Source: Psilocybe cubensis
Lineage: Eukaryota
Length of the DNA: 64,000 nt
Assembly (NCBI GenBank): GCA_017499595.2
Contig: CM038998.1
Coordinates: 2,728,001-2,792,000 of the forward strand
Reading direction: 5' to 3'
Made by a program: the position numbers and the translations under genes. This document shows positions 48,122 through 51,445 of the stretch, piece after piece. The notes below the pieces were generated by a model, which searched no databases, was not told the DNA's origin, and saw only the letters and a program-made list of their open reading frames with translations. How positions within the stretch are numbered: position 1 is the first letter of the stretch; each line of letters begins with the position of its first letter.

Positions 48122-49248
48122 TCAATCCTGGATCTCGGCTTGTTGTTGAGCTTCCCTTCCAACCCTCCTCTCCTTCTCGCTCTCCAATTGGTTGTAGAGC
48201 AAGAACAAGGCCTTTTCGTTGGCCTCGGGAGTACCCACAATGGTGAACATCCTTTCGCCCGTCTCGTCATGGGGAGCCTTCGCAATGGAGATTTTGGAAC
48301 CGGACAAACGGCGAATTTCGGTGATTTTTGTTCCACTCCGTCCGATGATGCAGCCCACCATGTCAGACGGAATGGAGATATTTTGAGTGCGCAGGTTAGC
48401 GGCAGCGGGCGGATTCAGGGCGGGGGTGTGAGCGTTGGTAGGAGATCCCGGAGGGGACGCGCGGCCACGAGGATTGGCATCCCCATTTCCACGGCGAGAA
48501 CCCGCGTAAGACGAGGAATAGCTGTGTCCACGACGATTGCCGCTGCGGTCATCGGTTGGTCCTGGGTGGAAGAGAACTGTTCCAAGGCCACGCTCCCAGT
48601 CCTCCAACAGACATTTACCAATCTCCTCCACCGCCCGTCCGATGGCCTCGGGGGAACCCTGGACTTCGACGATACGCTCAGTAGACTGGGGAAGCATCTC
48701 CTTGGATGCAACCATACGGGCACCAGAGCCATCCTGAATGGCTTTTATTTTGAGACCGTTGCGACCGATGATGGTGCCCATCAAATTGTGCGAGATCAAG
48801 AGACGAATGGAGGTGTGGAGAGAAGGAGAAGAAGTCGTAACGGGAGAAGAAGGGGTCGAGGCGACGAGCTGGGCGATAATGAGATTGTACGCCTGTACAA
48901 AGAACGCATTAGAAGCAAAAAAGAGGGCACTGAAGAGAACGAACCTTGGAGACGGCCTCGACAGAGCCGGTGACTGTGAGAACACGCTCATGGACGCCGG
49001 GAATGACCTTGCTGACACCAGCCTTGACGCCGGTCTGGTCTCTGAGGTCGGCGACATTTTTTCCAGCCTTTCCGATGATGACGCCGGCGTCCTTTGTGCT
49101 GACGAGGGCGCGGAGGGTGAGAGTATCATGGGGCGAGGGCGAGGGCGATCGGGACTGGGCTGGGGAGGCTGGAGACGATAAGCAGGAGGGTGTAAACAGG
49201 GACGAAAAGGTGCTCACCGTTGTCGTGTCTGGAGGAGTCGGAGGGCAT
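48122..49248 (-). CDS. Three-KH-domain RNA-binding protein (hnRNP K/Rnc1/Hek2-like)
   Basis: GVIIGKAGK, GTIIGRNGL and GCIIGRSGT KH signatures; two coding introns. Confidence 0.93.
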
Positions 49249-49509
49249 GGTGGATGGGGGGAAGGAGGAAGGGAGGAGGAGAATTCGTAAAATCGCTGGT
49301 AAGAGAAAAGAATAATAAATCGAGTTATTCCGTCCGAAATCTCTTTTTCTGCCTCGGAATTGCCCGAATCGTCCACTCAATATAATTCATGAATATTTCT
49401 CATTTTATCACTCCGTAAAAGTGCATGTCTCAATACCAACACTATCGCTAGTACATAGAATCCATAATGCGATTCCTCGCCCCATATCTCGAATTACCAT
49501 GTATCTACT

Positions 49510-50289
49510 CTAGTATCCCAACTGCGTGAGCTGTTCGAAAGATGATGCCGTGTCTGCAACCGCCTTTTGGCGCAACTTGACAGCAGCCAGCTACACACTA
49601 GTCAGTCTTTACTCAAATTTCCTGGCGTCTACCTCCCGCTTACCTTGCGCTCGTGGAATGCCTGTGCCTTGATCTTTCTCTTTTCCTCAAGACGATCAAC
49701 AATGTCCTTGTATCCCCACCCAACCTCGTGCGAGAGACGCTGTCGTGTCCACAGGTGAATATCATGTTCCCTCGAGGGTCTTTGCTTGCCTTACGGCTGG
49801 CTTACCTTGACGGTGCAGTATTTGCGGCCGGGCTTCAGCCTCAATACTCGCAGAGCTTCGGGGACCACCATCCTCTTCTTCTTGTCGTATGGTGGGGGGA
49901 CTCCCTCGAACAGCTTGAGGCGCTCGAGGGCAGCGGCACCGCGGGCGCTCTTGTGTGGGGTCATGCCCCGGATCGCCCGGTAGAGGATCTTGGAGGGTGC
50001 GCGGTGATGGAATGGACCGGACTTTTTGGGGTTCACAATGTGGCGCTTGTGGAGGAAGTTGTGGTAGCGGAGCTATTGCATCTCAAAGTTCAGCTGTATA
50101 TATCTTTGTTGTATCATATAGGCCGCATACCTTGTTACGGAAGAAGCTACCGGAAATGTTGATTTCCTCACACCTCACCACCACAATTTTCTGACCAGAG
50201 AGGATCTGCTTGGAGATGATTGAGGCCAATCGACCAAGGAGGTGGCCCTTGCCATCAATAACGATGGGTGTCGACGAAAAGGTGGCCAT
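49510..50289 (-). CDS. RPL16: 60S ribosomal protein L16 (uL13/L13a)
   Basis: [49 protein letters not shown], ...QLGY*. Confidence 0.97.
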
Positions 50290-50298
50290 TGTCGTGAT

Positions 50299-50421
50299 CT
50301 ACGCGTCCAAAGGGATTAGTTTTTTCGCGCAAACTCGCTTGCAGATTCTGTACGGACCTGTGGGGCAGAAAAAAGGGTATAATTTAGCGTTTGTTAATGA
50401 GCCCAGCCAGACGTTTCGTAC
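50299..50421 (-). other. Two abutting 5'-UTR introns of RPL16 (50421-50358 and 50357-50299)
   Basis: CAAG|GTACGA...GCTAAAT...CCCACAG|GTCCGT...ACTAAT...CGTAG|ATCACGACAATG on the minus strand. Confidence 0.65.
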
Positions 50422-50843
50422 CTTGAGGAGTTGAACGTTTACGCCGACTTGGGGAACCAATGTGGCTTAACAGGCCTCAAACCTTATCTGTCTACTGCAC
50501 AGTTCATTTCGGCTATTTCCGATATCCACTTTCTGAACCTCTACCGGTCTCCCTCTGCCAAAATTCTCCCCTCTGAAGCTTTTTTTTATTCAGTTTTATT
50601 TTTCTCTTGCTCTTTCCAGTGTTTTGAATGGTTACAATGAATGTCCTGGATTATAATCGAAATTACAGACCAAGTGCATATTTATTTGCACTCCGCGCCA
50701 GTGTATGTCTATTTATAACGATATTATATATTTATAAATGCCGGATATTCGGACAGTGCCGGGTTGACTTAGCAATTGGTCACGGTTGGCGAGTGGATTT
50801 TGGAGTTGCAACTCAACTTGACTTCAAGTAGCTTGTATTCATA

Positions 50844-51445
50844 ATGTCGCTCGCTCGTCTCATTCCAAGGGCTACCACCGTCTCTCGCATTGTCCGAACT
50901 GCCCCAACTCTCCAAACCAGATGGGTGCCCCGCGCCATGTACTCTGCTGGCGGTCCCTTGTCCAAGGACGTCATCACATCCCGCGTTCTCGAGACATTGA
51001 AGGGATACGAGAAAATTGACCCGGCCAAGGTGCGCGTCTTCGCCAATGTTTCTGCTGGTGCTCTATATTCACTGGACGCGTTTAGTTGACCACGTCCGCA
51101 TCTTTCCACAAAGACTTGGGGCTCGACAGCTTGGATGCAGTGGAAGTGATGATGGCAGTTGAAGAGGTATGTGTGGACGTGTTTCTCTTCATTGGACACT
51201 GCACGTTAAACACTAAACCCACTTAGGAGTTCTCAATCGAGATCCCTGACGCTGAGGCTGACGAAATTACAACGGTCCAACAAGGTACGTGTGGCTACAC
51301 GTTGGGGACTTCACGGCAATTCCCAATTAACCTGCTCCTTAGCCATCGACTATATCGCAAAATCTCCTGACGGTAAGGGCCCTCTTTTGATTCCACATTC
51401 TGCTTTAGGCTAACCGCTTGTCTTTTCCGCGTTGCAGCTCACTAA
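50844..51445 (+). CDS. ACP1: Mitochondrial acyl carrier protein
   Basis: Arg-rich presequence; DLGLDSLDAVEVMMAVEE|EFSIEIPDAEAD. Confidence 0.95.

What the first reader, a model, noticed from the sequence alone, without database searches (positions are those of the whole stretch)
50290..50430. RPL16 5' UTR has two abutting introns separated by an apparent zero-nucleotide exon (recursive-splicing / twin-intron candidate)
Seen: on the minus strand the leader reads CTCAAG|GTACGA...GCTAAAT...CCCTTTTTTCTGCCCCACAG|GTCCGT...ACTAAT...GCGTAG|ATCACGACA-ATG. Each half has its own donor, branch-point-like motif and acceptor, and each is typical intron size for this genome (64 and 59 nt). The first AG directly touches the second GT, so removing the upstream intron creates AAG|GTCCGT, a good donor. 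Established: recursive splicing at AG|GT sites is known mainly from very long animal introns, and stwintrons are known from ascomycetes. Inference: a ~123 nt intervening sequence is removed in two ordered steps in a highly expressed ribosomal-protein gene, possibly as a regulatory device. Removing the downstream intron first would instead give CAG-ATCACG, also resolvable.
Basis: partly seen in the sequence, partly recalled or inferred. Interest (0 to 1): 0.72.

Follow-up and report, generated by a model that had tools for sequence, protein, structure and literature searches.

The report
Back-to-back introns in uL13 leader
The untranslated leader of a mushroom ribosomal-protein gene holds two very short introns that touch with no exon between them, an arrangement kept in many related fungi; it is a rare but already described way of removing an intervening sequence in two cuts.

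Summary
The sequence is as described. On the minus strand a 64-nt unit (50421-50358) and a 59-nt unit (50357-50299) abut at CAG|GT, 9 nt upstream of the uL13 (RPL16/RPL13A) start codon.

RNA-like contigs confirm the three coding introns (53, 66, 58 nt). They stop before the leader, so this species gives no direct RNA evidence.

The case rests on comparison with metagenome relatives:
- Of 24 genomic agaric-like uL13 loci, 10 show the same zero-gap two-unit leader. One more shows it partially.
- These fall in six diverged lineages. Unit interiors are unalignable (33-36% identity), while the unit ends stay invariant.
- Interior shuffles match the inner site in 0-12 of 5000 trials.
- Other states also occur: a 2-nt gap, a single intron, and a clade with no recognisable upstream donor.

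Most likely these are two abutting U2-type introns with a zero-length exon, removed in two reactions. The order of removal and any regulatory role are untested. It is not a stwintron.

Zero-length-exon splicing is already documented in Cryptococcus, S. pombe and Candida-clade snoRNA host transcripts, so this is a new member of a known kind.

Side finding: the leader intervening sequences are about 7-fold depleted of ATG.

The parts
50422..50466 (-). Inferred leader exon 1. The 3' end at 50422 is fixed by donor 1; the 5' end (transcription start) is not mapped.
   Evidence: This block is about 80% alike between the window, L005 and L006, while the units are far less alike. It ends in CAAG in all two-unit and single-intron relatives. 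There is no RNA cover in this species.
50358..50421 (-). Unit 1: 64-nt intron with donor GTACGA (50421-50416), branch-like GCTAAAT (50388-50382), a pyrimidine tract and CAG (50377-50358).
   Evidence: Donor score 5.6 and acceptor score 6.0, both mid-rank among 51 coding-intron sites.
50356..50359 (-). AG|GT junction, the zero-length exon: the last base of unit 1 is 50358 and the first base of unit 2 is 50357.
   Evidence: A zero-gap junction is chosen by the automatic parse in the window and 10 of 24 genomic relatives. It is invariant in the alignment of 9 rows.
50299..50357 (-). Unit 2: 59-nt intron with donor GTCCGT (50357-50352), branch-like ACTAAT (50320-50315) and acceptor TAG (50301-50299).
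   Evidence: Donor score 6.2; acceptor score 3.5, which is weak and has little pyrimidine tract.
50287..50298 (-). Nine-nt leader part of exon 2 (50298-50290) and the start codon (50289-50287).
   Evidence: The leader is 7-11 nt in the two-unit relatives.
49510..50289 (-). uL13 coding region: exons 50289-50131, 50072-49806, 49739-49644 and 49590-49510, separated by introns of 58, 66 and 53 nt.
   Evidence: Joints in two RNA-like contigs; Pfam PF00572; translation.
50494..50513 (-). Conserved upstream motif (GCCG, a short spacer, then ACTRTRCAGT); a likely promoter element.
   Evidence: Read in the upstream sequences of most relatives. Its function was not tested.
50462..50467 (-). Conserved AGCCAC motif, about 40 nt upstream of donor 1.
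   Evidence: Present in the window and 18 of the 25 relatives listed, within 330 nt of the start codon. Its function was not tested.

Best explanation
The 123 nt between leader exon 1 and the 9-nt leader of exon 2 of the uL13 gene consist of two separate U2-type introns of 64 and 59 nt. They touch at CAG|GT, so the exon between them has zero length. Each unit has its own donor, branch site and acceptor, and each lies in the narrow size range (about 47-70 nt) that this intron-definition splicing system handles. The intervening sequence is therefore removed in two splicing reactions, not one. Two orders are possible. If unit 1 goes first, the leader's AAG is joined to GTCCGT and a good donor is regenerated, which is classic recursive splicing. 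If unit 2 goes first, CAG is followed by the leader and unit 1 is an ordinary intron. Both routes give the same mRNA. U1 pairing at donor 2 covers the last three bases of unit 1, so the two spliceosomes probably cannot assemble at the junction at once, and the steps must be sequential (inference). What is shown: the sequence anatomy, and long-term conservation of the inner junction. What is inferred: that the region is transcribed and spliced in this species, that both units are used, and the sequential order. The arrangement is most simply a frozen accident kept by selection for efficient splicing of a very highly expressed gene, not a regulatory switch.
For: Anatomy. Unit sizes match the coding introns: 53, 58 and 66 nt in this gene, and 47-70 nt in 47 of 51 distinct coding introns of relatives. 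Conservation: an automatic parser was free to choose any gap of 0-12 nt. It chose gap 0 at the same architecture in the window and in 10 of 24 genomic relatives (L001, L002, L005, L006, L007, L009, L012, L016, L017, L018). L008 shows the junction and unit 2 before its contig ends. These loci form six lineages on a coding-sequence tree. Among the six lineages the unit interiors are 36% and 33% identical (gaps counted). Each unit keeps its start (G at +1 and +5; GT in unit 2; position 2 of unit 1 is C in L009 and T in the other 8 rows) and its final AG in all 9 aligned rows. Interior shuffles reached the real inner-site score in 0, 6, 2, 12, 5, 8 and 11 of 5000 trials for seven representatives. 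Exon 1 ends in CAAG and is followed by a good donor both in these loci and in single-intron relatives. Two intron-free (cDNA-like) contigs of relatives carry leaders with no pyrimidine tract. L019's leader resembles exon 1 of L005, L006, L012 and L016 (z 2.1-3.4), joined directly to the short leader. Precedent: zero-length exons are spliced recursively in fungi.
Against: There is no RNA evidence for the leader in this species. The two RNA-like contigs end at 50291 and 50285 and show no joint there, so the transcription start, the fully spliced junction and any intermediates are all unseen. Acceptor 2 scores low. Five relatives (L004, L010, L015, L021, L023) keep the pyrimidine tract, the YAG|GT junction and unit 2 but share no GT or GC donor upstream. 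A tract plus AG|GT can therefore persist without being an acceptor. Introns of 111-191 nt with no inner AG|GT exist in the first coding intron of L014 and L024-L026, so long one-piece introns are spliceable in some relatives. The cDNA evidence is weak. L003's leader aligns as well to the 3' end of unit 2 of its sister L009 as to exon 1. L019's best match in the window itself lies inside unit 1 (z 5.0). The genomic architecture of both cDNA species is unknown. In L020 the zero-gap parse is only the third and fourth best. The splice-site matrices come from only 51 introns at three orthologous positions.
Confidence: 0.6

Rival explanations
1. There is one ordinary 123-nt leader intron, removed in a single step from donor 50421 to acceptor 50299 using the ACTAAT branch. 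The inner AG|GT is used rarely or never.
For: The mature mRNA would be identical, so nothing seen here excludes it for this species. One-piece introns of 111-191 nt exist in relatives. At loose thresholds, AG|GT triples occur by chance about 4.5 times per shuffled window.
Against: It does not explain why the inner acceptor-plus-donor, with a branch-like motif and pyrimidine tract upstream, is kept in six lineages whose interiors are saturated. It also does not explain why shuffles almost never reproduce it. A strong inner donor and acceptor inside a short intron would be expected to be used.
Confidence: 0.12
2. In most mRNAs only unit 2 is an intron. Either transcription starts in or near the pyrimidine tract of 'unit 1', or unit 1 stays in the mature leader, so the tract plus CAG is the end of a first exon rather than an acceptor.
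For: Five relatives (L004, L010, L015, L021, L023) keep the tract, YAG|GT and unit 2 with no shared upstream donor, and their tracts differ almost only by C/T changes. The leader intervening sequences are strongly depleted of ATG: 2 seen against 13.5-14.7 expected, while coding introns show no depletion. That fits sequence that is often present in translated mRNA.
Against: Donor 1 after CAAG is conserved and strong in the window's own clade (GTACGA, GTGAGA, GCGAGT), and the same exon end is used in single-intron relatives. L006, L008, L009 and L022 carry an ATG 17-47 nt upstream of the start codon, which by position falls in unit 2, so unit 2 at least is not tolerated as leader there. The leaders of the two cDNA-like contigs hold no pyrimidine tract.
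Confidence: 0.15
3. There is no leader intron in this species. Transcription starts downstream of 50357, or even of 50299, and the splice-like signals are relics.
For: None positive. Nothing seen in this species shows the leader to be transcribed or spliced, so the reading is not excluded.
Against: Relics would not keep four splice sites and two branch-like motifs intact across six lineages. Relatives' cDNA-like contigs have leaders of at least 34 and 195 nt.
Confidence: 0.04
4. This is the first reader's stronger reading: the two ordered steps are a regulatory device, with timed or conditional removal or retention of one unit tuning uL13 output.
For: ATG depletion of both units would let partly spliced mRNAs still be translated. 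Long conservation is compatible with function.
Against: No isoform data exist. Lineages have replaced the arrangement with a single intron (L011/L013 inside the two-unit clade), with a 2-nt exon (L022), or with a dead donor, apparently without harm. Conservation is explained as well by selection for efficient splicing alone.
Confidence: 0.08

Closest known systems
Recursive splicing at a zero-nucleotide exon in Cryptococcus neoformans BOT1 (Burke et al., bioRxiv 10.1101/224170; passages read)
   Same: It is a basidiomycete case. An annotated single intron is really two introns flanking a zero-nucleotide exon, and the final product is one exon-exon junction.
   Different: That case is 375 nt split into 210 + 165, and was shown directly by spliceosome-bound junctions, branches and 3' ends. 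Here the sequence is 123 nt split into 64 + 59, lies in a 5' leader, and is inferred from conservation only.
Zero-length exon in the S. pombe SPNCRNA.445 (snoRNA61 host) intron (Chen et al., bioRxiv 10.1101/226894; passages read)
   Same: A 3' splice site lies immediately next to a 5' splice site in a short-intron fungus, and those sites are conserved in sister species.
   Different: That is a 336-nt intron of a non-coding snoRNA host, confirmed by spliceosome profiling and RT-PCR. Here it is a protein-coding ribosomal-protein gene with units of normal intron size and no snoRNA; Rfam found nothing.
snoRNA polycistron hosts of Candida-clade yeasts and Debaryomyces, with exon sizes of zero or one base (PMC5033589; passages read)
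   Same: Neighbouring short introns are separated by 0 or 1 nt and are removed by recursive or ordered splicing. States vary between species (0 versus 1 nt), as they do here (0 versus 2 nt).
   Different: Each of those introns carries a snoRNA, which explains why it exists. Here the units carry no known RNA.
Drosophila ratchet points / zero-nucleotide recursive splicing (bioRxiv 10.1101/006163 and PMC8605326; abstracts only)
   Same: A juxtaposed acceptor and donor, (Y)n-CAG|GT, regenerates a 5' splice site after the first step.
   Different: Those sites subdivide very long introns (tens of kb). Here the whole sequence is 123 nt, so length subdivision in the animal sense is not the reason.
Stwintrons of Pezizomycotina (PMC6616335 and PMC5639578, passages read; others from the listing)
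   Same: They are complex intervening sequences of two U2 introns in fungi, removed by consecutive reactions.
   Different: In a stwintron the internal intron interrupts the donor, branch or acceptor of the external one, which only forms after the first excision. Here neither unit interrupts the other, and either can be removed first.
Single-nucleotide exon in Arabidopsis (PMC4674806; listing and abstract start only)
   Same: It is an extreme micro-exon between two introns, comparable with the 2-nt gap read in relative L022.
   Different: It is a coding exon in a plant and is not zero-length.

Membership tests
Abutting U2 introns / zero-length-exon recursive splicing | A 3' splice site immediately followed by a 5' splice site (AG|GT) inside the intervening sequence | tested here: met
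   CAG at 50360-50358 is followed by GTCCGT at 50357-50352. Acceptor score is 6.0 and donor score 6.2, both mid-rank among 51 coding-intron sites.
Abutting U2 introns / zero-length-exon recursive splicing | Each part has its own donor, branch site and acceptor, at spliceable spacing | tested here: met
   Units of 64 and 59 nt, with branch-like motifs 26 and 17 nt from their 3' ends. The gene's coding introns are 53-66 nt. This is met by sequence only.
Abutting U2 introns / zero-length-exon recursive splicing | A 5' splice site is regenerated after removal of the upstream part | tested here: met
   Exon 1 ends in AAG, so the join gives AAG followed by GTCCGT. Exon 1 ends in AAG in all two-unit relatives.
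Abutting U2 introns / zero-length-exon recursive splicing | Intermediates, separate lariats or branches for both parts are observed in RNA | not testable with these tools
Only assembled contigs could be laid, and they end at 50291 and 50285.
Abutting U2 introns / zero-length-exon recursive splicing | The final mRNA joins the flanking exons exactly | tested here: inconclusive
   Not seen in this species. The cDNA-like contig L019 of a relative joins exon-1-like sequence to the short leader. L003 is ambiguous.
Abutting U2 introns / zero-length-exon recursive splicing | The inner splice-site pair is conserved in related species | tested here: met
   Zero-gap junction in the window plus 10 of 24 genomic relatives, in six lineages with saturated interiors. 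Shuffles matched it in 0-12 of 5000 trials.
Stwintron (spliceosomal twin intron) | An internal intron interrupts the donor, branch element or acceptor of the external intron, which becomes functional only after the first excision | tested here: not met
   Both units have complete GT, branch and AG signals in the unspliced sequence, and neither lies inside a signal of the other. The definition comes from the abstracts of PMC8469720 and PMC6616335 and passages of PMC6616335.
Ribosomal protein uL13 (RPL16 in yeast, RPL13A in human) | Ribosomal_L13 domain and close identity to named uL13 proteins | tested here: met
   PF00572 at E 2e-08 on exon 2. Exon 2 is 100% identical to a cluster named from Psilocybe cyanescens and 96-99% identical to Mycena, Lentinula and Marasmius proteins named 60S L16/L13a.

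The most novel reading that the evidence does not exclude
The leader is a three-state device and not just two introns. The pyrimidine tract that serves as acceptor of unit 1 would double as the 3' end of an alternative, pyrimidine-rich (TOP-like) first exon, or as a transcription start, which is the state fixed in the clade that lost donor 1. Because both units are kept free of ATG, fully spliced, half-spliced and unspliced leaders would all be translated, but with different leaders. Overlap of the two splice sites at the junction would then force an order and let the cell set the ratio of the forms. That would link splicing kinetics to translational control of a ribosomal protein in mushrooms.
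Probability: 0.1. Interest if true: 0.7.

Novelty: new member of a known kind. Interest (0 to 1): 0.45.

Why it matters
If both units are used, zero-length exons are not only a way to cut very long animal introns into pieces. They would also be stably maintained for long evolutionary times between two introns of minimal size, in an intron-definition fungus and in one of its most highly expressed genes.

The relatives give a natural series: 0-nt gap, 2-nt gap, a single intron, and a dead upstream donor. That series could be used to study three things:
- how overlapping 3' and 5' splice sites compete;
- how introns are gained, lost or exonised in untranslated leaders;
- how small an exon can be.

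There is also a practical point. Gene predictors and RNA-seq junction callers will annotate such a leader as one 123-nt intron, so cases like this are probably under-counted.

The ATG-free state of the leader intervening sequences, if general, would mean that unspliced leaders are translated often enough to be under selection.

Tried and rejected
RNA in this species:
- The run search listed no holder on record as RNA.
- Two runs guessed to be RNA (X1, X2, one study) gave one contig each. These bridge the three coding introns but end at 50291 and 50285, with no joint and no loose end.
- The two other runs laid nothing.
- The leader is therefore simply not covered, and I draw nothing from that.

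Origin by tandem duplication of an intron:
- Unit 1 versus unit 2 within seven loci gave z of -0.3 to 1.4, so no similarity.

Origin by duplication across the exon 1/intron border:
- Exon 1 versus unit 1 gave z of -1.2 to 0.4.
- This model is rejected as untraceable.

Which unit was lost in the single-intron relative L011:
- No assignment was possible; the best z was 2.4.

A 4-nt micro-exon (GTCC, then GTACAG):
- The second GT is simply positions +5 and +6 of the GTNNGT donor.
- By my reading of the sequences printed, the hexamers starting there in relatives are not consistent donors.
- What is conserved is the donor at the junction itself. This alternative was not scored separately.

Hidden RNA gene in the units:
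- Rfam found no match at E up to 1 in 49300-50900.

Window-wide scan for further abutting pairs:
- At strict thresholds it found none, not even this site.
- At loose thresholds it found 12, against a mean of 4.5 in 20 shuffled windows.
- The others were not followed up and look mostly like ordinary exon-intron borders.

The 54 more distant loci (L027-L080):
- They were only printed and read by eye, not parsed or counted.
- Most look ascomycete-like, with an intron after the first few codons, or are intron-free contigs.
- L028-L030 and L077 appear to have one leader intron.

Hand-made site table:
An automatic parser replaced it.

Literature:
- 'UTR intron' + 'ribosomal protein' + 'Agaricomycetes' found no paper.
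- 'recursive splicing' + 'basidiomyc' found three papers, none on mushrooms.
- 'uATG' + 'UTR introns' + 'depleted' found one unrelated paper.
- I therefore found no description of this leader in the searched library. Subscription journals and supplementary files were not seen.

Full report
**What is there**

On the minus strand the gene's start codon is at 50289-50287. Upstream lie, in order:
- a 9-nt leader (50298-50290);
- a 59-nt unit (50357-50299: GTCCGT, ACTAAT 17 nt from the end, TAG);
- directly touching it, a 64-nt unit (50421-50358: GTACGA, GCTAAAT 26 nt from the end, a pyrimidine tract, CAG);
- sequence ending in CTCAAG at 50422.

The coordinates and letters of the finding are correct. 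Exon 2 carries Pfam Ribosomal_L13. It is 100% identical to a protein cluster named from Psilocybe cyanescens, and 96-99% identical to proteins named 60S L16/L13a of Mycena, Lentinula and Marasmius. So this is uL13 of an agaric.

The neighbours are an acyl-carrier-protein gene, divergent on the plus strand, and a KH-domain gene downstream.

**RNA in this species**

The run search found no holder on record as RNA. Two runs guessed to be RNA hold about 0.4 of the sampled words. Laid on 49400-50700, each gave one contig. These skip 53, 66 and 58 nt with GT..AG ends, confirming the three coding introns. They end at 50291 and 50285, with no joint or loose end. The leader is therefore not covered, and this says nothing about its splicing. 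No further read-laying was allowed.

**Relatives**

A scan of metagenome contigs with the first coding exon returned 80 loci.

The 26 closest (89-100% identical peptide) were analysed:
- 24 are genomic, with coding introns present.
- 2 (L003, L019) are intron-free, cDNA-like contigs.
- The other 54 loci were only read by eye and are not counted.

From the 24 loci and the window I took 59 coding introns, 51 of them distinct. Of those, 47 are 47-70 nt and the rest are 111, 154, 182 and 191 nt. I built donor and acceptor matrices from them.

**Automatic parse of the leader**

An automatic parser looked for the best one-intron and two-intron reading upstream of each start codon, allowing 0-12 nt between two units. 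Results for the 24 genomic loci:

| State | Loci | Details |
|---|---|---|
| Zero-gap two-unit leader, ends equivalent to the window | 10 (L001, L002, L005, L006, L007, L009, L012, L016, L017, L018) | Unit 1 is 50-77 nt, unit 2 is 52-69 nt, leader 8-9 nt |
| Partial two-unit | 1 (L008) | Junction and unit 2 seen before the contig ends |
| Two units separated by 2 nt | 1 (L022) | 61 and 60 nt |
| Ambiguous | 1 (L020) | Zero-gap parse only third and fourth best |
| Single leader intron | 6 (L011, L013, L014, L024, L025, L026) | About 56-74 nt |
| Junction kept, no upstream donor | 5 (L004, L010, L015, L021, L023) | See below |

The window itself parses as 64 + 59 nt with gap 0.

The last five loci keep a pure pyrimidine tract, YAG|GT and a 46-47 nt unit 2. 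The parser's upstream donors for them are non-homologous. Their alignment shows no shared GT or GC between an invariant 17-mer and the junction. By my reading, the CAAG that precedes donor 1 elsewhere is followed by GA in all five.

**Is the inner junction more than chance?**

- Within each of seven representatives, dinucleotide-preserving shuffles of the interior gave an inner split scoring as well as the real one in 0, 6, 2, 12, 5, 8 and 11 of 5000 trials.
- Across six lineages the unit interiors are 36% and 33% identical with gaps counted, which is effectively unalignable.
- By contrast, in all nine aligned rows each unit keeps G at +1 and +5 and its final AG. Unit 2 always begins GT. Position 2 of unit 1 is C in L009 and T in the other eight rows.
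- A quick maximum-likelihood tree of 600 coding columns puts the two-unit loci in one clade of 15 rows. The single-intron pair L011/L013 is nested inside that clade.
- That 15-row clade is sister to the single-intron group L014 + L024-L026.
- The group L020 plus the five donor-less loci lies outside both. Support values are moderate and the root is arbitrary.
- As a caution, a scan of the whole window at thresholds that admit this site finds 12 such triples, against a mean of 4.5 in 20 shuffled windows. Conservation, not the single sequence, carries the argument.

**Transcripts of relatives**

L019's leader ends in sequence resembling exon 1 of L005, L006, L012 and L016 (z 2.1-3.4), joined directly to an 11-nt leader. 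That fits complete removal of whatever lies between. However, its best match in the window is inside unit 1 (z 5.0), which I take as chance because L005 and L006 do not share it.

L003 is sister to the two-unit locus L009 on the tree (support 100). Its 34-nt leader aligns about as well to the 3' end of L009's unit 2 as to exon 1. It is ambiguous.

**Mechanism**

The best reading is two abutting U2-type introns with a zero-length exon, removed in two reactions. Either order works on paper:
- Removing unit 1 first regenerates AAG|GTCCGT.
- Removing unit 2 first leaves an ordinary intron ending in CAG before the leader.

U1 pairs with the three bases before a donor, and here those are the acceptor of unit 1. 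Simultaneous definition of both units at the junction is therefore unlikely, which implies sequential removal. This is inference from general spliceosome knowledge and was not tested.

Selection for fast, accurate splicing of a very highly expressed transcript, in a system tuned to about 50-70-nt introns, is enough to explain the conservation. Nothing here shows a regulatory role.

I found no trace of the origin. Unit 1 and unit 2 are not alike, and exon 1 and unit 1 are not alike.

**A side result**

The leader intervening sequences of 11 lineage representatives (1152 nt) hold 2 ATGs, against 14.7 (base composition) or 13.5 (dinucleotide) expected. ATG is the most depleted of all 64 triplets.

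The coding introns of the same loci (1846 nt) hold 37, against 29.6-41.1 expected. Fisher's test gives P = 2.7e-6, though the lineages are not fully independent.

In most loci the ATG-free run reaches beyond the conserved AGCCAC motif. The exceptions are L006, L008, L009 and L022, which have one ATG 17-47 nt upstream of the start codon; by position it falls in unit 2. This suggests that unspliced or half-spliced leaders meet scanning ribosomes often enough to be under selection. It also keeps alive the rival in which unit 1 is often part of the mRNA.

**Comparison with what is known**

- The arrangement works like recursive splicing at zero-nucleotide exons.
- Fungal precedents exist: Cryptococcus neoformans BOT1 (375 nt as 210 + 165), S. 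pombe SPNCRNA.445 and one other, and snoRNA host transcripts of Candida-clade yeasts and Debaryomyces with exons of 0 or 1 nt.
- It is not a stwintron, because no splice signal is interrupted. The stwintron authors list abutting introns as a separate class.
- New here are the setting (the leader of a ribosomal-protein gene in Agaricales), the minimal size of both units, and the range of related states in relatives.
- My searches found no description of it. Subscription journals and supplements were not seen.

**Verdict**

The two-intron reading is well supported by comparison but unproven at the RNA level. The stwintron label is rejected, and the regulatory claim is unsupported. This is a new member of a known kind, of moderate interest.

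Noticed in passing
window 50299-50421 (minus strand) and the leader introns of L001-L026: The leader intervening sequences of uL13 are almost free of ATG: 2 seen against 13.5-14.7 expected in 1152 nt. Coding introns of the same loci are not depleted (37 against 30-41 expected). ATG is the most depleted of the 64 triplets.
   Followed up: partly
L004, L010, L015, L021 around 1390-1500; L023 around 660-775: One clade keeps the pyrimidine tract, YAG|GT and a 46-47 nt unit 2 but has no shared upstream donor; by my reading GA stands where relatives have GT. The tract varies almost only by C/T changes. It may be an exonised intron or a pyrimidine-rich leader or start site.
   Followed up: partly
L022, about 135 nt upstream of its start codon at 1501: Two leader introns of 61 and 60 nt appear to be separated by only 2 nt (confirmed). 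This is a possible 2-nt exon and a neighbouring state to the zero-length exon.
   Followed up: no
window 50494-50513 and 50462-50467 (minus strand): Two motifs upstream of exon 1 recur in the upstream regions printed for relatives, as read by eye: GCCG, a spacer, then ACTRTRCAGT; and AGCCAC. AGCCAC (or its reverse complement) was counted in the window and 18 of the 25 relatives listed, within 330 nt of the start codon. In one clade it appears as its reverse complement inside an invariant 17-mer. They are likely promoter elements of this ribosomal-protein gene.
   Followed up: no
L014, L024, L025, L026: first coding intron: The first coding intron is 111-191 nt in these loci, against 50-70 nt elsewhere. 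It has no functional-looking inner AG|GT, so long one-piece introns exist in some relatives.
   Followed up: partly
window 48125-49213 (minus) and 50843-51226 (plus); proteins P0005, P0017, P0022, P0026, P0040: Public gene models fuse uL13 with other domains: PF00550 acyl carrier protein in P0005; KH domains in P0022 and P0026; PF08450 in P0005, P0017 and P0040. ACP and KH genes are the window's own neighbours of uL13. The fusions look like annotation errors, and the ACP and KH fusions imply conserved gene order in Mycena, Amanita and Astraeus.
   Followed up: no
window 15520, 16102, 16900, 17468, 18928, 39544, 40619 (plus); 40605, 37504, 24230, 18892 (minus): Eleven other AG|GT sites pass the loose two-unit scan. 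Most look like ordinary exon-intron borders with a chance upstream pseudo-unit. None was checked against gene models or relatives.
   Followed up: no
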